The translations under genes and the position numbers were made by a program. From an uncultured Synergistia bacterium (GTDB taxonomy: Bacteria; Synergistota; Synergistia; CAYRKT01), in contig CAYRKT010000001.1 of the NCBI GenBank assembly GCA_964425005.1, positions 77,980 through 141,979 of the forward strand: 64,000 bases of DNA, in the 5' to 3' direction. The notes under the pieces are model-generated. The model was not told the DNA's origin. It was given only the letters and a program-made list of their open reading frames with translations, and searched no databases. Shown here in pieces: positions 48,548 to 54,702 of this stretch. The first letter of the stretch is position 1. Each line of letters starts with the position of its first letter.

Positions 48548-49480
48548 ATGCCCGGGAGCGAACCATACAGGACCTGGAGCTCTTACCTGCGGGAGAGGTT
48601 CGGAAGGAGGGTCCACAAGGTCTCTCTGGACGTGGGGGCCACCTGCCCCCACAGAGACGAGGACGACAAAGGACTAGGGGGCTGCGTCTTCTGCGATCGA
48701 AGAGGGGGCGGTAGCGGGGCTTCCCTGAGGGGCGAATCCCTCGAGGAACAGGTCGAGAGGGGGGCTACCTTCGCCGTCTCCAGGTTCAAGGCGCAGGCCG
48801 TGATCCTCTACCTCCAAAGCTACACCCCGACCTTGCTCAGCGCTTCGGCCCTGGAGGAGGCTGTGGAGAGGGCTCTCTCGGCGGCAAGCAGGCTCTGCCC
48901 CGTGGTGGGGGTATCGGTGGCCACGAGGCCTGACACGCTAAAGGAGGAACACATCGACCTCCTCCTGCGGCTTCAGGGCCGAGGGCTGGAGGCGTGGGTC
49001 GAGGTGGGTGCGCAAAGCCTCTGCAGCAAGAGCCTGCTTTGGCTGAACCGCCGCCACGGCGTGAGCTCCACGATCAAGGCCTTCAGGATGCTATCAGAGG
49101 CGAGGATAAAAAGCTGCGCCCACGTGATCCTCGGGATACCCGTGGAGGAAGAGGAGGAGACTGTGGACTCGGTGGTCTCCCTGAGCCTGCTAGGGGCCAT
49201 CTCCTTCAAGTTCCACCCTCTCCACGTGCTCAGGGGGACACCCCTCCACCAGATGTTCCTGCGGGGGGAGTACGTCCCCCTCGCCATGGAGGACTACATA
49301 AGGACCCTGTCCCTGTGCATCTCCTCCCTGCCGGAGGAGGCCATAGTGCAGCGCGTATCCGCTGAGGCACCACCCGATCTGCTGGTGGCGCCCCAGTGGT
49401 GCCTCCAGAAGCAGAACGTGATAAAGGCCCTCAGGGACTACATGAGCTCCAACGGCCTAAGACAAGGGTCTAGACGCTAG
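48548..49480 (+). CDS. Radical SAM protein, TIGR01212 (YhcC-like) family
   Basis: VSLDVGATCPHRDEDDKGLGGCVFCDRRG cysteine motif typical of this family; 310 aa. A TATAAT at 48531-48536 lies only about 12 nt before the ATG, so the transcript may be near-leaderless. Confidence 0.8.
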   Translation: MPGSEPYRTWSSYLRERFGRRVHKVSLDVGATCPHRDEDDKGLGGCVFCDRRGGGSGASLRGESLEEQVERGATFAVSRFKAQAVILYLQSYTPTLLSASALEEAVERALSAASRLCPVVGVSVATRPDTLKEEHIDLLLRLQGRGLEAWVEVGAQSLCSKSLLWLNRRHGVSSTIKAFRMLSEARIKSCAHVILGIPVEEEEETVDSVVSLSLLGAISFKFHPLHVLRGTPLHQMFLRGEYVPLAMEDYIRTLSLCISSLPEEAIVQRVSAEAPPDLLVAPQWCLQKQNVIKALRDYMSSNGLRQGSRR

Positions 49481-50003
49481 CCCCCTTACCCCTGTAGGTG
49501 GGCGCCGTCTCCGGTTCGGTCCCGCGCTTGACCTTGTGGTAGTAGGCGTAAGTCATCGGCTCTCCGCCCAGGTGGACCGCCGCGTCCACAAGCCTCCCCA
49601 CGAACAGTGTGTGGGTGCCCACGTCCAAGGAGGAGACCACCTCGCACTCCCCCCAGGCCACGCAGTGGTTGAGGACTATGGGGCAACCCCTGGGCGAGAT
49701 CACGTACTCGAGCCCCTCGAGGGCGAACTTGTCCACGTCCCTGCCGCACTTGAACCCGAAGTGACCTATGAACCTAAGAGGGGTGTCCTGGGAGAGGATC
49801 GAGAAGGAGAAGAGCCCGCTTCTGGCCACGTGCTCGTGGGTGCAGTTCCTCTTGTTGAGACAAACCCCTATCTGCGGCGGCTCGGCGGTGACCTGCATGA
49901 GGGCGTTGGCTATCTGGGCGTTAAAACGCCCCTCCAGGGGGGATGAGACCACGTACACGCCGTAACTTATGTGGTAGAGGGCCTTAAGGTCCAACGAATC
50001 CAC
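49470..50003 (-). CDS. Flavin reductase-like (FMN-binding split-barrel) protein, flavoredoxin-type
   Basis: Flavin_Reduct-like layout (..YGVYVVSS..NAQIANALMQVTAEPPQIGVCLNKRN..HTLFVGRLVD..); 177 aa. Confidence 0.7.
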   Translation of the reverse strand: MDSLDLKALYHISYGVYVVSSPLEGRFNAQIANALMQVTAEPPQIGVCLNKRNCTHEHVARSGLFSFSILSQDTPLRFIGHFGFKCGRDVDKFALEGLEYVISPRGCPIVLNHCVAWGECEVVSSLDVGTHTLFVGRLVDAAVHLGGEPMTYAYYHKVKRGTEPETAPTYRGKGASV

Positions 50004-50007
50004 CTCC

Positions 50008-50862
50008 TCACAACTTGATGTCCTTGAGCTTCTGTTGGGCCTTGAGGATGCTCACTATCACGTCAGTCACGCTGTCGAAGCGCTTCATGGTGTCCCGCAT
50101 CACGGCGGTGGACCTCTCTATGTGGTCCGAGCCGGCCCCCAACCTGTCGGAGGACTCGCTGAGTATCCCACGGATCTCCTCCATGAAGGCCCTGACGGCC
50201 TCGGAGAACTCGGTGAAGGAGAGGAGCGCGCCCTGGACTATGTCGAACATCTCCTTGACCTTCCCTATGTTCTCCATGGCCTCCCTGACGGCCGACGAGA
50301 GCTCCCTCACCTTGACGTTTATGTTGTCCGACACCCCTTTGGACTCGTTGGCCAGGTTCTGCACCTCGTGGGCGACCACGGCGAAGCCCCTGCCGTGTTC
50401 GCCGGCTCTGGCCGCCTCTATGGAGGCGTTCAAGGCCAGGAGGTTGGTCTGTTTGGCTATCTTGGAGATCTGTTTGACCATCTCCTCCACCTCGAGGAAG
50501 GCCCCCAGGATGCCATAGGTCTTCTTGACCGTGTCCTCCACCATGGCGCTGGCGCCGGCCAGGTCCGTGCCCGCCCTGGACAGGTCCCCCGAGAGCCGCT
50601 CGTTCATCTGTTTCACCCTCTCTATGTTCTCAGCGGCAGACCTCTTGCTGAGCTCGAAGGTATCCCGAAGCTTCCTGAAGGACTTGTTGAGATCCTCGAA
50701 CTCGGACAAGACCTCCCCCAGGTCCTTCTTCACCGCGAGAGCCCTCCTGAGGATGGTCTTGTCGAGCTGCTGCATGAAGGAGAGCATCAAGATCTCGGAG
50801 AAGAAGGAAGAGGATAGCTTCTTGATGTGGGACATACCGACCTGTCTGGCCATATCGGACAC
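50008..50862 (-). CDS. Soluble methyl-accepting chemotaxis protein (signalling domain only, no transmembrane or HAMP region)
   Basis: Highly conserved MCP tip [35 protein letters not shown]; 284 aa with no hydrophobic segment. Confidence 0.75.
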   Translation of the reverse strand: [284 protein letters not shown]

Positions 50863-50885
50863 CTCCAGAGGCCCCTAAGCCTCGC

Positions 50886-53345: not shown

Positions 53346-53443
53346 TGGCGGAGGCGTGTGGGAATCGAACCCACCGGGAGCCGCCGAGGCAACCCCCCAC
53401 TGGATTTGAAGTCCAGGACACCCACCAGGACATATCCGCCTCC
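53346..53443 (-). tRNA. selC: tRNA-Sec (selenocysteine tRNA), anticodon TCA, about 98 nt with long variable arm, CCA encoded
   Basis: Anticodon arm CTGGA-CTTCAAA-TCCAG is identical to E. coli selC; long extra arm TGGGGGGTTGCCTCGGCGGCTCCC; T arm GTGGG-TTCGATT-CCCAC; discriminator G + CCA; acceptor GGAGGCG(G)/(A)CGCCTCC with a G:A at the 8th pair. Confidence 0.75.
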
Positions 53444-53455
53444 GCTCTTGGAGAG

Positions 53456-53464
53456 ATTATACCA
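53456..53464 (-). promoter_or_regulatory. Extended -10 promoter (TGgTATAAT) directly upstream of tRNA-Sec
   Basis: Minus strand reads ttagtttttTGgTATAATctctccaagag|tRNA. The predicted transcription start lies about 6 nt before the mature 5' end. Sits in the 50-nt gap after the fprA stop. Confidence 0.4.
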
Positions 53465-53493
53465 AAAACTAAGAGGTACCTTTCGGGATGCCC

Positions 53494-54702
53494 TCAGTAC
53501 TGACAGGCCTTGAGAAGCTGGGCCATCCTGCGCCCCATCTCCCTGCACCTGTCCAGGTCCTCGGCGGACGGAGAGGACTTGAACTCGAAGGACGGCTCCA
53601 CCAGCTCCCACGATCCGCTCTTCGTCAGCACCTCCTTCATCTGGGAGACGATCCCGGGACTCCAGGTGTAGCAACCTACCAAGCCCAGAAGCCTGCCCTC
53701 CATCTTCTTGTTGGCCAGGTGCCCCAGGAGCTCGCGAACCGGAGGGAAGATCTCGGCGTTGTAGGTGCAGGAGGCCAGCACCAGGGCCTTGAAGCGCCAT
53801 ATGTCCTTCACCACGAAGGAGGAGTGAACCCTGGAGGCGTCGTGGACCACTATCCTCTCTATCCCCTCCTCCGCCAGGGTCCTCGCCACGGCCTCGGCGG
53901 CCTTTCGGGTGTTGCCGTACATGGACCCGTAGACCACCACGGCGCCGCACTCGGTCCTGTGCTCGCTCCACCTCAGGTACCTTTCGACTATGGAGTTGGG
54001 CCTCCGGCGATGGATGGGGCCGTGGGAGGGAGCCACCACCCTTATCCTCAAAGAGGATAGCTTCTCTATCGCCGCCTTGACCGGCTTGCTGTAGCGACCG
54101 ACGATGTTCGAGAAGTACCTCAGGATCTCGTCCTCGTAGTACTCCATGTCGACCTCGTCGTCGAATATACCTCCGTCGAGACAACCGAAACCGCCGAAGG
54201 CGTCGCAGGAGAAGAGGACGCCCTCCCCCTCGTGGTAGGTGGCCATGGTCTCAGGCCAATGGACCATGGGTATGGTGTGGAAGGAGAGCGCGTGCCCACC
54301 GCCCAGGTCGAGCCTATCCCCGTCCTTCACCACCAGCACGTCTCGCTCCCCCAGTCCATAGAAGCTCTTTAGCATCTCGAGGGTCTTGGAGTTGCCCACG
54401 AACTTGAGCCCCGGATACAGAGCCTTCAGCATCCTGGCCGAACCAGAGTGATCGGGCTCCATGTGGTTTACCACCACGTAGCTCAACGGCCTGCCCCCTA
54501 GGACGGACCTCACCTTGTCCATCAGCTCGCCGAAGAAGGAGGACTTGACCGTGTCCACCAGCAACGCCTCGTCCCCCACCACCAGGTAGGAGTTGTAGGA
54601 GACACCCCTAGGAAGAGGCCAGTAGGCCTCGAAGAGATCGGTCTCGTGGTCGTTTACGCCCACCCAGTAGATGCCCTTGGCCACGGCCACCGCCTCGTGC
54701 AA
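53494..54702 (-). CDS. Flavodiiron protein (FprA / rubredoxin:oxygen oxidoreductase type)
   Basis: MBL-like di-iron domain with VVNHMEPDHSGS (H-x-E-x-D-H), HTIP, DAFGG, then a C-terminal flavodoxin-like domain; 402 aa. Confidence 0.85.
   Translation of the reverse strand: MHEAVAVAKGIYWVGVNDHETDLFEAYWPLPRGVSYNSYLVVGDEALLVDTVKSSFFGELMDKVRSVLGGRPLSYVVVNHMEPDHSGSARMLKALYPGLKFVGNSKTLEMLKSFYGLGERDVLVVKDGDRLDLGGGHALSFHTIPMVHWPETMATYHEGEGVLFSCDAFGGFGCLDGGIFDDEVDMEYYEDEILRYFSNIVGRYSKPVKAAIEKLSSLRIRVVAPSHGPIHRRRPNSIVERYLRWSEHRTECGAVVVYGSMYGNTRKAAEAVARTLAEEGIERIVVHDASRVHSSFVVKDIWRFKALVLASCTYNAEIFPPVRELLGHLANKKMEGRLLGLVGCYTWSPGIVSQMKEVLTKSGSWELVEPSFEFKSSPSAEDLDRCREMGRRMAQLLKACQY

What the first reader, a model, noticed from the sequence alone, without database searches (positions are those of the whole stretch)
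49470..54702. Compact oxygen/oxidative-stress module: FprA, selC, tsaE-tsaB, PerR-like Fur, ODP-like di-iron domain, soluble MCP, flavoredoxin
Eight minus-strand genes are packed with 0-23 nt gaps or overlaps (tsaB directly abuts fur; fur and the MBL-fold gene overlap by 1 nt). The MBL-fold protein aligns residue-for-residue with the di-iron domain of the neighbouring flavodiiron protein but lacks the flavodoxin domain and one His ligand (HQDPDV vs HMEPDH). Directly downstream is a signalling-domain-only chemoreceptor. This is the architecture reported for oxygen-binding di-iron protein (ODP) sensors paired with soluble MCPs in Treponema and Thermotoga. Placement after a Fur/PerR-like repressor and near FprA suggests a peroxide- or O2-responsive aerotaxis/avoidance unit, fused to the otherwise housekeeping tsaEB operon.
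Basis: partly seen in the sequence, partly recalled or inferred. Interest (0 to 1): 0.6.

Follow-up and report, generated by a model that had tools for sequence, protein, structure and literature searches.

The report
Oxygen/iron chemotaxis sensor beside a PerR regulator
This stretch encodes a known kind of bacterial oxygen/iron sensor (ODP) with its small soluble chemotaxis receptor, placed directly behind a peroxide-regulator gene, so it is a clear new example of a known system in an unusual but only partly conserved gene neighbourhood.

Summary
Eight minus-strand genes lie at 49470-54702: flavodiiron protein FprA, tRNA-Sec, TsaE, TsaB, a PerR-like Fur-family regulator, an ODP, a sensor-less soluble MCP, and a flavin reductase.

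The MBL-fold protein is a true oxygen-binding di-iron protein. It scores 257 bits on Pfam ODP. Its model matches the T. maritima and T. denticola ODP crystal structures (TM 0.91 and 0.83). HQDPDV is the family's invariant motif.

The MCP has no membrane or sensor segment. Its best solved match is a 213-residue T. maritima MCP chain (3g6b/3g67). ODP followed by a short MCP recurs in 77 of 80 related loci, so the pair is a new member of the kind described in 2019.

Corrections:
- The "flavoredoxin" is closest to Archaeoglobus ferric reductase FeR. Its relatives sit beside flavodiiron-protein genes in 53 of 80 loci, often with a rubredoxin-like ORF between them.
- The fprA-selC gap is 50 nt.
- Several start codons move.

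New: perR-odp-mcp, framed by tsaEB and mnmL, is conserved in the nearest sister lineage (37% GC against 62%) but in no other ODP locus examined. Close PerR homologues elsewhere precede rubrerythrin or sit beside AhpC.

No Per box was found in the window, so peroxide control remains an inference.

The parts
53494..54702 (-). fprA: class-A flavodiiron protein (MBL-type di-iron core plus flavodoxin domain), 402 aa. TTG start behind a GGAGGTGA ribosome-binding site.
   Evidence: Pfam ODP/Lactamase_B plus Flavodoxin_1. Best PDB hits are E. coli flavorubredoxin cores, M. thermoacetica FprA and T. maritima FDP, E 5e-65 to 4e-57. HMEPDH at residues 80-85.
53346..53443 (-). selC: tRNA-Sec, anticodon TCA.
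   Evidence: ARAGORN. Rfam RF01852, 77.9 bits against a gathering score of 47, E 3e-15.
53456..53464 (-). Extended -10-like element TGGTATAAT, 13 nt upstream of selC. It is a possible promoter for selC and perhaps for the genes downstream.
   Evidence: Read directly from the sequence. Consensus match only, not tested.
52818..53339 (-). tsaE: t6A ATPase subunit. Gene callers also use a start at 53309.
   Evidence: Pfam TsaE E 4e-23. TIGR00150, 60.5 bits against a cut-off of 60.1.
52142..52828 (-). tsaB: t6A dimerisation subunit, 228 aa. The longest ORF runs to 52888. Its TAG stop abuts the fur start.
   Evidence: TIGR03725, 118 bits against a cut-off of 69.3, with the match starting at residue 26 of the long ORF. 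Gene calls of 228 aa on identical contigs.
51698..52141 (-). PerR-like Fur-family regulator, 147 aa.
   Evidence: Pfam FUR E 3e-19. The best NCBIfam models are PerR models but fall below their cut-offs. The top three PDB hits are the B. subtilis, S. pyogenes and Leptospira PerRs. H37, H91, H93, D104 and four Cys are conserved, with D85 replaced by E. The nearest homologues elsewhere are followed by rubrerythrin or flanked by AhpC and an FMN reductase.
50886..51674 (-). odp: oxygen-binding di-iron protein, 262 aa. The longest ORF starts at 51698.
   Evidence: Pfam PF19583, 257 bits, full length. PDB 6qrq E 2e-108 and 6qnm E 2e-85. AF2 pLDDT 90.9; Foldseek TM 0.91 (61% identity) to T. maritima ODP and 0.83 (50%) to T. 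denticola ODP.
51414..51431 (-). Codons for the HQDPDV metal-site motif (ODP residues 82-87). The other columns that align with FDP ligands are H151 (51222-51224), D170 (51165-51167) and H228 (50991-50993).
   Evidence: Invariant in 16 ODPs. Aligned with the FprA HMEPDH, H148, D167 and H227 columns.
50008..50853 (-). Soluble MCP with only a signalling domain, 281 aa. ATG start behind a GGAGGTG ribosome-binding site.
   Evidence: MCPsignal E 8e-30. Best PDB hit is T. maritima 3g6b/3g67, E 6e-29, with a conserved hairpin tip. Maximum 19-residue hydropathy is 0.93, and an in-frame stop lies 5 codons upstream of the longest start. The same kind of MCP follows ODP in 77 of 80 loci.
49470..49994 (-). 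FeR-like NAD(P)H flavin/ferric reductase, 174 aa. It ends 11 nt inside the convergent mnmL gene.
   Evidence: Pfam Flavin_Reduct E 3e-34. PDB 1i0r/1i0s, the A. fulgidus ferric reductase FeR, E 1e-47 over the full length. Relatives lie next to a flavodiiron-protein gene in 53 of 80 loci, with a rubredoxin-like or PAS_10 ORF between them.
48548..49480 (+). Convergent radical-SAM tRNA-modification gene (MnmL/YtqA). It marks the downstream boundary of the unit and is conserved in that position in the sister lineage.
   Evidence: TIGR01212, 240 bits against a cut-off of 180. L175 carries the same convergent gene directly after the MCP, 47% identity.
54848..54862 (.). AT-rich 7-1-7 inverted repeat AAGCTATTATAGCAT about 150 nt upstream of fprA. 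It is an unproven operator candidate and is not similar to known Per boxes.
   Evidence: Only 5 of 14 positions match TTATAATnATTATAA by eye.

Best explanation
The core of the finding is an ODP-MCP chemotaxis sensor pair.

Shown here:
- The 262-aa protein has the ODP fold and the ODP metal-site residues: H82, D84, D86, H151, D170 and H228. It has no flavodoxin domain.
- The 281-aa protein directly downstream is a cytoplasmic chemoreceptor made only of the signalling hairpin.

Inferred from the characterised T. denticola and T. maritima homologues:
- ODP loads two Fe(II) ions and binds O2 as a stable peroxo-diferric adduct.
- ODP contacts the receptor in a way that depends on its conformation. 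This changes CheA kinase output, so the cell steers with respect to O2 and Fe(II).

In this deep-branching Synergistota lineage the pair sits directly behind a PerR-type peroxide regulator. The six-gene run tsaE-tsaB-perR-odp-mcp-feR is tightly packed and has no terminator-like site. It lies downstream of selC and fprA.

Inferred, at about 45% confidence:
- The run is co-transcribed.
- The pair therefore shares the transcriptional control of perR. It occupies the slot taken by rubrerythrin or other peroxide-defence genes next to the closest PerR homologues elsewhere.

The last gene is an FeR-type flavin reductase. By neighbourhood evidence from its relatives it belongs with flavodiiron proteins, as an NAD(P)H-driven electron donor, usually with a rubredoxin-like gene beside it. 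So it most likely serves FprA. Whether it also re-reduces ODP is speculation.
For: ODP identity.

Soluble MCP:
- Domain content, best PDB match and absence of a TM segment.
- ODP followed by a TM-less MCP of about 285 aa in 77 of 80 loci from Synergistota, Thermotogota, Thermodesulfovibrio, Aquificae and Spirochaetes.

Mechanism of characterised ODPs: cited (Muok et al. 2019, PNAS 116:14955).

PerR assignment. Homologues are followed by rubrerythrin or flanked by AhpC and an FMN reductase, with perfect TTGTAATnATTACAA palindromes upstream of some of them.

Operon-like packing:
- Ribosome-binding sites and gaps of -11 to 32 nt.
- No minus-strand terminator-like site.

Conservation in the sister lineage:
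- tsaE-tsaB-...-perR-odp-mcp, followed by convergent mnmL, is present there.
- That lineage has RpoB 74% identical and 37% GC against 62% in the window.
- Identities to the window proteins are Fur 48%, ODP 65%, MCP 56% and TsaB 36%.

FeR-like reductase:
- An FDP gene lies next to it in 53 of 80 relatives' loci.
- A rubredoxin-like ORF lies between the two in about 20 loci.
- FUR is the immediate upstream neighbour in 4 of 72 loci, and rubrerythrin in 13 of 72.
Against: - No Per box is present anywhere in the 64-kb window. Both TTATAATnATTATAA and TTGTAATnATTACAA give 0 hits at up to 3 mismatches. The best match in the module is 9 of 14.
- In the other 80 ODP loci, tblastn found no Fur, FprA or FeR-like gene next to ODP. 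The one Fur hit lies about 7 kb away. FUR and Flavin_Reduct are also absent from the 25 commonest Pfam families among 61 upstream and 58 downstream neighbours. The linkage is therefore clade-specific.
- The housekeeping genes tsaE, tsaB and selC are interleaved with the stress genes.
- The FeR-like gene is absent from the sister lineage's unit, and fprA and selC are not seen there either.
- No rubredoxin gene is in the window.
- No cheA, cheW, cheY or flagellar gene was seen in the 10 window ORFs scanned with Pfam or in the 10 kb called on either side. The rest of the window was not scanned and was judged housekeeping only from ORF sizes and N-terminal sequences.
- Transcription, metal binding and signalling were not tested.
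Confidence: 0.8

Rival explanations
1. Only odp-mcp is a functional unit. Its position behind perR, near fprA and in front of the reductase is a by-product of genome compaction and has no regulatory or biochemical meaning. PerR acts elsewhere, and the reductase serves FprA or general flavin reduction.
For: - No Per box in the window.
- No Fur-family or Flavin_Reduct gene next to ODP in the 80 other ODP loci.
- Unrelated tsaE, tsaB and selC genes sit in the same run.
- The reductase, fprA and selC are not part of the sister lineage's unit, which instead has five oxidoreductase genes between tsaB and perR.
Against: - perR-odp-mcp stays contiguous in two lineages that differ by 25 points of GC. 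Their TsaB proteins are only 36% identical.
- The close PerR homologues examined have peroxide-defence genes beside them: rubrerythrin directly downstream, or AhpC upstream and an FMN reductase downstream.
- The sister lineage has a 12-of-14 Per-box match between perR and odp. The estimated chance of such a match is about 0.08.
Confidence: 0.4
2. The MBL-fold protein is an enzyme rather than a sensor. It would be a truncated flavodiiron O2/NO reductase core or a metallo-hydrolase, and the MCP next to it would be unrelated.
For: - It shares the fold and six of the seven FDP ligand columns.
- Generic Lactamase_B also matches it.
- Source annotations call its relatives 'MBL fold metallo-hydrolase' or 'flavorubredoxin'.
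Against: - It has no flavodoxin domain. The hydrolase HxHxDH motif is absent; the sequence is HQDPDV.
- It is 61% and 50% identical to the two crystallised chemotaxis ODPs, with TM 0.91 and 0.83. FDP cores reach only TM about 0.7 at 15-18% identity.
- It is genetically coupled to a sensor-less MCP in 77 of 80 loci.
Confidence: 0.04
3. The pair is real, but its output is not flagellar aerotaxis. The soluble MCP might feed an alternative Che-like pathway, or it might be an orphan in a non-motile organism.
For: - No che or flagellar genes were seen in the parts of the window and its 10-kb flanks that were annotated.
- ODPs are also found next to GGDEF/EAL/PAS, response-regulator and CheB genes in other genomes.
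Against: - In T. denticola the odp-mcp pair is described only as genetically coupled, and no che genes are mentioned beside it. The genome has a single CheA, and the soluble receptor is thought to join the membrane arrays.
- The CheA/CheW-binding hairpin tip of the window's MCP is highly conserved with the best-matching T. maritima MCP chain.
Confidence: 0.1

Closest known systems
ODP with its soluble chemoreceptor in Thermotoga maritima (ODP structures 6qrq/6qwo; the window MCP's best solved match is the T. maritima MCP chain 3g67/3g6b, which I take from memory to be Tm14, the ODP-linked receptor)
   Same: - Single-domain MBL-fold di-iron protein with the HQDPDV motif.
- 61% identity, TM 0.91.
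- The gene is followed directly by an MCP of about 280 aa with only a signalling domain. The window MCP matches 3g6b at E 6e-29.
- The order ODP then MCP is seen in the Thermotogota loci sampled.
   Different: - The window's pair sits directly behind a PerR-like gene and in front of an FeR-like reductase.
- No Fur-family gene was seen next to ODP in the Thermotogota loci sampled.
Treponema denticola ODP (TDE2498; 6qnm/6r9n) and its receptor TDE2496 (Muok et al. 2019 PNAS; Muok et al. 2020 Nat Commun)
   Same: - Same family: E 2e-85, 50% identity, TM 0.83.
- It is coupled to an MCP that lacks transmembrane and sensing modules.
- It is the experimentally shown O2 and Fe(II) chemotaxis sensor.
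   Different: - More distant in sequence than the T. maritima protein.
- From a spirochaete.
- No PerR linkage is reported in the held papers.
PerR-headed peroxide-stress operons (B. subtilis PerR, 2fe3; perR-rubrerythrin and ahpC-perR-FMN reductase clusters)
   Same: - Fur-family fold. H37, H91, H93 and D104 equivalents are present, as is the Cys4 zinc site.
- The regulator gene is followed on the same strand by oxidant-related genes.
   Different: - The gene after perR is a chemotaxis sensor, not a peroxidase.
- D85 is replaced by Glu.
- Scores are below the NCBIfam PerR cut-offs.
- No Per box was detected.
NAD(P)H-to-rubredoxin-to-flavodiiron protein electron chains (D. gigas ROO; M. thermoacetica FprA with Hrb) and A. 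fulgidus ferric reductase FeR (1i0r)
   Same: - A class-A FDP with HxExDH is present.
- The reductase aligns with FeR over its full length, E 1e-47.
- Relatives of the reductase sit upstream of a rubredoxin-like ORF and an FDP gene.
   Different: - In the window fprA and the reductase are 3.5 kb apart, separated by six genes.
- No rubredoxin gene is present in the window.
- The link to Hrb and ROO comes from my own knowledge and was not tested here.

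Membership tests
ODP (oxygen-binding di-iron protein, Pfam PF19583) | Matches the family HMM above the curated cut-off, over the full length | tested here: met
   257.3 bits against a cut-off of 27.2, profile positions 1-194 of 194.
ODP (oxygen-binding di-iron protein, Pfam PF19583) | Single-domain MBL fold without a flavodoxin/FMN domain, superimposable on solved ODPs | tested here: met
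   262 aa with no flavodoxin hit. AF2 pLDDT 90.9. TM 0.91 to 6qrq/6qwo and 0.83 to 6r9n/6qnm, against about 0.7 for FDP cores.
ODP (oxygen-binding di-iron protein, Pfam PF19583) | Conserved metal-site residues (H-Q-D-P-D-V, plus His, Asp and His further on) and not the hydrolase HxHxDH | tested here: met
   H82, Q83, D84, P85, D86, V87, H151, D170 and H228 are invariant in 16 ODPs, and the motif is present in both PDB sequences. Ligand roles are inferred from alignment to FDP ligand columns. They were not read from coordinates.
ODP (oxygen-binding di-iron protein, Pfam PF19583) | Genetic coupling to a cytoplasmic chemoreceptor that lacks a sensor domain | tested here: met
   The MCP starts 32 nt downstream. 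The same arrangement is seen in 77 of 80 related loci.
ODP (oxygen-binding di-iron protein, Pfam PF19583) | Binds two Fe, forms a stable peroxo adduct with O2, and alters CheA output through the receptor | not testable with these tools
   These are biochemical properties. They are known only for the T. denticola and T. maritima proteins.
ODP (oxygen-binding di-iron protein, Pfam PF19583) | The host has a chemotaxis core (CheA, CheW, CheY) to signal to | tested here: inconclusive
   None was seen in the 10 window ORFs scanned with Pfam or in the 10-kb flanks on either side.
Soluble MCP with only a signalling domain (the kind paired with ODP in T. maritima and T. denticola) | MCPsignal hairpin with a conserved kinase-control tip | tested here: met
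   MCPsignal, 104 bits against a cut-off of 34.6. The alignment to 3g6b shows the conserved '[32 protein letters not shown]' tip.
Soluble MCP with only a signalling domain (the kind paired with ODP in T. maritima and T. denticola) | No transmembrane segment, HAMP domain or ligand-binding domain | tested here: met
   No other Pfam domain scores above its cut-off. Maximum 19-residue hydropathy is 0.93, against 2.07 for a membrane-protein control. A stop codon lies 5 codons upstream of the longest start.
PerR (peroxide-sensing Fur-family repressor) | Fur-family fold with a Cys4 structural Zn site | tested here: met
   Pfam FUR, 69.8 bits against a cut-off of 23.1. CRGC at residues 100-103 and CSSC at 140-143 align with C96, C99, C136 and C139 of B. 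subtilis PerR.
PerR (peroxide-sensing Fur-family repressor) | Regulatory-site ligands H37, D85, H91, H93 and D104, with Asp rather than Glu at position 104 | tested here: met
   H41, H95, H97 and D108 align with H37, H91, H93 and D104. D85 aligns with E89, a conservative change. The significance of D104 comes from my own knowledge of the PerR/Fur literature.
PerR (peroxide-sensing Fur-family repressor) | Scores above a curated PerR equivalog cut-off | tested here: not met
   The best score is NF052545, 79.7 bits against a cut-off of 180. Other PerR models score 52-64 bits against 200. Hence 'PerR-like' and not a named PerR orthologue.
PerR (peroxide-sensing Fur-family repressor) | A Per-box operator near the genes it controls | tested here: not met
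   0 matches at up to 3 mismatches to either Per-box variant in 64 kb. The best match in the module is 9 of 14. The sister lineage has a 12-of-14 match between perR and odp, which is suggestive only.
Class-A flavodiiron protein (FprA) | MBL di-iron core with HxExDH, followed by a flavodoxin domain, with no extra C-terminal modules | tested here: met
   The NorV equivalog models score far below their cut-offs (249 bits against 635), consistent with the absence of a rubredoxin domain.
FeR-type short-chain flavin reductase (Pfam Flavin_Reduct) | Full-length similarity to a characterised member | tested here: met
   Flavin_Reduct, 118.7 bits against a cut-off of 27. 1i0r (FeR) E 1e-47, residues 1-167 aligned with 1-165. 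The identity of 1i0r is confirmed.
FeR-type short-chain flavin reductase (Pfam Flavin_Reduct) | Adjacent rubredoxin and FDP genes, as in its relatives | tested here: not met
   Relatives have an FDP gene next to the reductase in 53 of 80 loci, with a rubredoxin-like ORF between in about 20. In the window fprA is 3.5 kb away and no rubredoxin gene was found.

The most novel reading that the evidence does not exclude
In this Synergistota clade the ODP-MCP taxis sensor has been captured into the PerR unit. It occupies the slot where peroxide-defence genes such as rubrerythrin normally sit.

On this reading a transcriptional peroxide and metal sensor (PerR) sets how much of a post-translational O2/Fe(II) taxis sensor the cell makes.

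In the window's lineage the co-transcribed FeR-type NAD(P)H reductase would also re-reduce the diferric or peroxo ODP. That would make it a dedicated reset enzyme for the sensor, in addition to supplying electrons to FprA.
Probability: 0.18. Interest if true: 0.55.

Novelty: new member of a known kind. Interest (0 to 1): 0.3.

Why it matters
ODP-type sensors explain how anaerobes with sensor-less cytoplasmic chemoreceptors detect O2 and Fe(II). This locus adds a confident example from a deep, uncultured Synergistota lineage.

The only new element is the context. The pair sits behind perR in two very divergent sister lineages. If that linkage is regulatory, it would connect the transcriptional peroxide response to behavioural oxygen avoidance.

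The side result may help people who work on anaerobe oxygen defence. FeR-like reductases are habitually encoded beside flavodiiron-protein genes, often with a rubredoxin-like or PAS_10 gene between them. That gives a testable candidate for the electron donor of these enzymes.

Tried and rejected
1. Canonical Per box and the Bacteroidota-type variant. Both gave no match in the window.
   - A palindrome upstream of fprA (54848-54862) has the right 7-1-7 geometry but the wrong sequence. Its two near-copies lie inside genes. I rejected it as evidence.

2. Sigma-70 and terminator scans. One promoter-like site lies inside perR, no more than shuffled sequence gives. The perfect TATAAT there is forced by the conserved 'VYN' codons. 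I did not use it.

3. Looking for Fur, FprA, TsaEB or FeR next to ODP in 80 genome loci.
   - tblastn found none adjacent.
   - Pfam on 61 upstream and 58 downstream neighbours did not list them. It showed PAS/GGDEF/EAL, CheB and response-regulator genes instead.
   - My crude ORF caller failed on about 19 high-GC loci, so those neighbours were not scanned.

4. Synteny at rpoB in the nearest relative. The module is not upstream of rpoB there. It was found elsewhere in that genome through the ODP.

5. Whether the two ODP-linked PerRs form a special subfamily. They do not. The sister lineage's PerR is about as similar to generic PerRs (45-51%) as to the window's (48%).

6. A second ODP or MCP, a rubredoxin gene, and che genes in the window and its 10-kb flanks. 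None were found in what was searched or annotated.

7. The original ODP paper (PMC6660769) is not in the held library. Its content is cited through papers that summarise it and from my own memory.

8. Recent horizontal transfer of the module. GC and GC3 are the same as in the rest of the window, so there is no support for it.

Full report
**1. What is in the sequence**

ORF listing, tRNA scanning and family searches confirm eight consecutive minus-strand features between 49470 and 54702.

| Feature | Coordinates | Main evidence |
|---|---|---|
| Class-A flavodiiron protein FprA | 53494-54702 | MBL core plus flavodoxin; HMEPDH at residues 80-85 |
| tRNA-Sec | 53346-53443 | ARAGORN; Rfam 77.9 bits |
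| TsaE | 52818-53339 | TIGR00150 above cut-off |
| TsaB | 52142-52828 | TIGR03725 above cut-off |
| Fur-family regulator | 51698-52141 | Pfam FUR |
| MBL-fold protein | 50886-51674 | Pfam ODP |
| MCPsignal-only protein | 50008-50853 | Pfam MCPsignal |
| Flavin_Reduct protein | 49470-49994 | Pfam Flavin_Reduct |

- Reading the minus strand shows strong GGAGG-type ribosome-binding sites 5-8 nt before the starts I prefer.
- The same starts were chosen by gene callers on 99-100% identical metagenome contigs.
- With these starts the gaps are fprA-selC 50, selC-tsaE 6, tsaE-tsaB -11, tsaB-perR 0, perR-odp 23, odp-mcp 32 and mcp-reductase 13 nt.
- The reductase ends 11 nt inside the convergent radical-SAM gene mnmL (48548-49480).
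- No terminator-like site lies on the minus strand in the module.
- An extended -10-like TGGTATAAT sits 13 nt upstream of selC.

**2. The MBL-fold protein is an ODP**

- It matches Pfam PF19583 (ODP) end to end, at 257 bits against a cut-off of 27.2.
- It matches the PDB 'oxygen-binding diiron protein' entries 6qrq/6qwo at E 2e-108 and 6qnm/6r9n at E 2e-85.
- An AlphaFold model built on 16 homologues has pLDDT 90.9.
- Foldseek places the T. maritima ODP structures first (TM 0.91, 61% identity) and then the T. denticola ODP (TM 0.83, 50%). Flavodiiron cores follow at TM about 0.7 and 15-18% identity, and true beta-lactamases lie further down.
- HQDPDV is not a defect of this copy. H82, Q83, D84, P85, D86 and V87, together with H151, D170 and H228, are invariant across 16 ODPs. 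The motif is present in both crystallised proteins.
- Against the neighbouring FprA the two proteins are only 19-20% identical.
- The ligand columns still line up: H/H, D/E, D/D, V/H, H/H, D/D and H/H.

**3. The receptor**

- The 281-aa protein has only an MCPsignal domain.
- Its best solved relative is a 213-residue T. maritima MCP chain, 3g6b/3g67 (E 6e-29), with a near-identical hairpin tip. From memory this is Tm14, the soluble receptor paired with T. maritima ODP.
- Its most hydrophobic 19-residue stretch scores 0.93, against 2.07 for a membrane-protein control.
- An in-frame stop lies five codons upstream of the longest possible start, so no hidden N-terminal domain is possible without a frameshift.
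- Across 80 ODP loci from Synergistota, Thermotogota, Thermodesulfovibrio, Aquificae and Spirochaetes, 77 have an MCP directly downstream of ODP. Its median length is 285 aa, and none has a TM-like segment.
- This is the arrangement described by Muok et al. 2019. The papers I could read summarise it as follows. ODPs are encoded in operons with MCP genes. ODP binds iron and oxygen directly and interacts with its cognate soluble receptor in a conformation-dependent way. In T. denticola it is the oxygen sensor for chemotaxis and influences CheA ordering in the arrays.
- From memory of the 2019 abstract, not checked here, the peroxo-diferric form destabilises phospho-CheA.

**4. The regulator**

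- The three best PDB matches of the Fur-family protein are all PerRs: B. subtilis (E 6e-19), S. pyogenes and Leptospira. Fur and Zur structures score E 1.6e-9 or worse.
- The alignment to B. subtilis PerR conserves H37, H91, H93, D104 and all four zinc cysteines. D85 becomes Glu. Asp at position 104 distinguishes PerR from Fur; that point is my own knowledge.
- The best NCBIfam models are PerR models, but they score far below their equivalog cut-offs. I therefore call it PerR-like.
- Apart from variants of at least 99% identity from the same organism, its closest homologues in a 5.8-billion-protein database are only 47% identical. Of the five I examined:
  - three (P0148, P0209 and P0162) are followed directly by rubrerythrin;
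  - two (P0140 and P0142) lie between AhpC and an FMN reductase;
  - these are typical PerR contexts.
- Two of the rubrerythrin cases (P0148 and P0162) carry a perfect TTGTAAT-n-ATTACAA palindrome just upstream. The third (P0209) has an imperfect copy.
- In the window neither this variant nor the Bacillus consensus occurs at up to 3 mismatches.
- A 7-1-7 AT-rich palindrome about 150 nt upstream of fprA (54848-54862) does not resemble a Per box.

**5. Organism and conservation of the arrangement**

- RpoB is 66-68% identical to named Synergistota such as Thermanaerovibrio, Aminobacterium and Cloacibacillus.
- It is 74% identical to one unnamed assembly, GCA_054025675.1. That assembly's fetched contigs have 36-37% GC, against 62% here.
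- In that sister lineage the module is not upstream of rpoB.
- Its ODP (65% identical) sits in the order tsaE, tsaB, five oxidoreductase genes, FUR (48% identical), ODP, MCP (56% identical). A second assembly (L175) shows the convergent mnmL gene directly after the MCP.
- So the perR-odp-mcp block, and its tsaEB and mnmL frame, have survived a divergence at which TsaB is only 36% identical.
- In the 80 other ODP loci, tblastn found no adjacent Fur-family gene.
- FUR is not among the recurrent Pfam families of 61 upstream and 58 downstream neighbours. Those are PAS/GGDEF/EAL, CheB, response regulators and unrelated genes.
- Another Synergistota ODP locus (L176) also lacks it.
- In the sister lineage perR has its own upstream region with a clear terminator and an extended -10-like TGGTATACT.
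- The 77-nt perR-odp spacer there holds a TTGTCT-17-TATAAT promoter-like site overlapped by a 12-of-14 Per-box match. I estimate such a match arises by chance about 8% of the time in AT-rich DNA of that length, so it is suggestive only.

**6. The last gene**

Flavoredoxins score E 1e-9 to 2e-8. One search confirms what 1i0r is.
- I scanned metagenome contigs with this protein and obtained 80 loci with 55-60% identical relatives.
  - 53 have a flavodiiron-protein gene next to the reductase, downstream on the same strand in 52 of them.
  - About 20 have a 53-54-aa ORF with the rubredoxin CxxC...CxxC pattern between the two genes. This was recognised by eye and not scanned with Pfam.
  - About 30 have a 129-aa PAS_10 protein in that position.
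  - The immediate upstream neighbour is SufBD in 29 of 72 loci, rubrerythrin in 13 and FUR in 4. Examples include PerR, reductase, rubredoxin-like ORF, FDP in L133, L143 and L164.
- This family is therefore a habitual companion of flavodiiron proteins. By analogy with NADH:rubredoxin oxidoreductase/ROO and with Hrb/FprA (my own knowledge), it is most likely their NAD(P)H-linked electron supplier.
- In the window it is separated from fprA by six genes. No rubredoxin gene is present, and the gene is missing from the sister lineage's unit.
- I therefore treat a role in re-reducing ODP as an open possibility, not a conclusion.

**7. Mechanism, with shown and inferred steps**

Shown here:
- sequence, fold and ligand conservation of ODP;
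- a sensor-less soluble MCP immediately downstream;
- a PerR-like gene immediately upstream;
- operon-like packing;
- conservation of perR-odp-mcp in one sister lineage.

Inferred from characterised homologues:
- Fe(II) loading of ODP;
- O2 binding as a peroxo-diferric species;
- conformation-dependent contact with the MCP;
- altered CheA output.

Inferred from context at about 45%:
- co-transcription with perR, and hence peroxide- or metal-dependent expression.

Speculative:
- the FeR-like protein acting as a reset reductase for ODP.

Not established:
- whether the organism has CheA, CheW, CheY and flagella. None were seen in the 10 window ORFs scanned with Pfam or in the 10-kb flanks. Most of the window's other genes were recognised as housekeeping only from ORF sizes and N-terminal sequences.

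**8. Verdict**

The system is a new member of a known kind, the ODP plus soluble MCP pair of 2019. It has a clade-specific, partly conserved linkage to PerR that I did not find described in the held literature. Interest is modest, at 0.3.

Noticed in passing
window 54747-55502 (+) and 55197-56402 (-): A CDP-alcohol phosphatidyltransferase resembles phosphatidylinositol-phosphate synthases (NCBIfam E 3e-42 to 3e-35, all below cut-off). It overlaps convergently, by about 306 nt, the 3' tail of the cation-diffusion-facilitator ORF. The CDF Pfam domains end at residue 298 of 401. The remaining low-complexity tail of about 100 aa is entirely antisense to the transferase gene. Gene callers on the identical contigs omitted the transferase.
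   Followed up: partly
L094-L173 (metagenome loci around relatives of the window's reductase 49470-49994): There is a recurrent cluster: SufBD or rubrerythrin or PerR, then the FeR-like reductase, then either a rubredoxin-like ORF (53-54 aa) or a 129-aa PAS_10 protein, then a flavodiiron protein. The PAS_10 protein between the reductase and the FDP, seen in about 30 loci, is unexplained.
   Followed up: partly
window 53346-53464 (-): The tRNA-Sec gene is wedged between fprA and tsaE. It has an extended -10-like TGGTATAAT 13 nt upstream and only 6 nt before the longest tsaE start. A similar TGGTATACT precedes perR in the sister lineage (L174, about 5442-5450). Selenoprotein genes and selA, selB and selD were not looked for.
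   Followed up: no
window 3190-4461, 4500-4964 and 4987-5508 (all -): Three consecutive ORFs of 423, 154 and 173 aa have good coding GC3 but no Pfam match at E 1e-4. The first has a signal-peptide-like N-terminus.
   Followed up: no
L174 1890-5274: In the sister lineage five genes are inserted between tsaB and perR: a Fer2_4 protein, a Pyr_redox_2 protein, a 4Fe-4S protein, an SO_alpha_A3/Fer2_BFD protein and a DAO-family oxidase. They are followed by a clear intrinsic terminator. Their function is not known.
   Followed up: no
whole window; L091: The window comes from a deep Synergistota lineage. RpoB is 66-68% identical to every named genus and 74% identical to one unnamed assembly, whose fetched contigs have 36-37% GC against 62% here. 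Synteny rpoB-rpoC-PHP-rimP-nusA-ylxR-infB is kept between the two.
   Followed up: partly
window 47990-48520 (-): A second, PgsA-like CDP-alcohol phosphatidyltransferase gene lies between rpoB and mnmL. The 10-kb region therefore holds two enzymes of this family.
   Followed up: no
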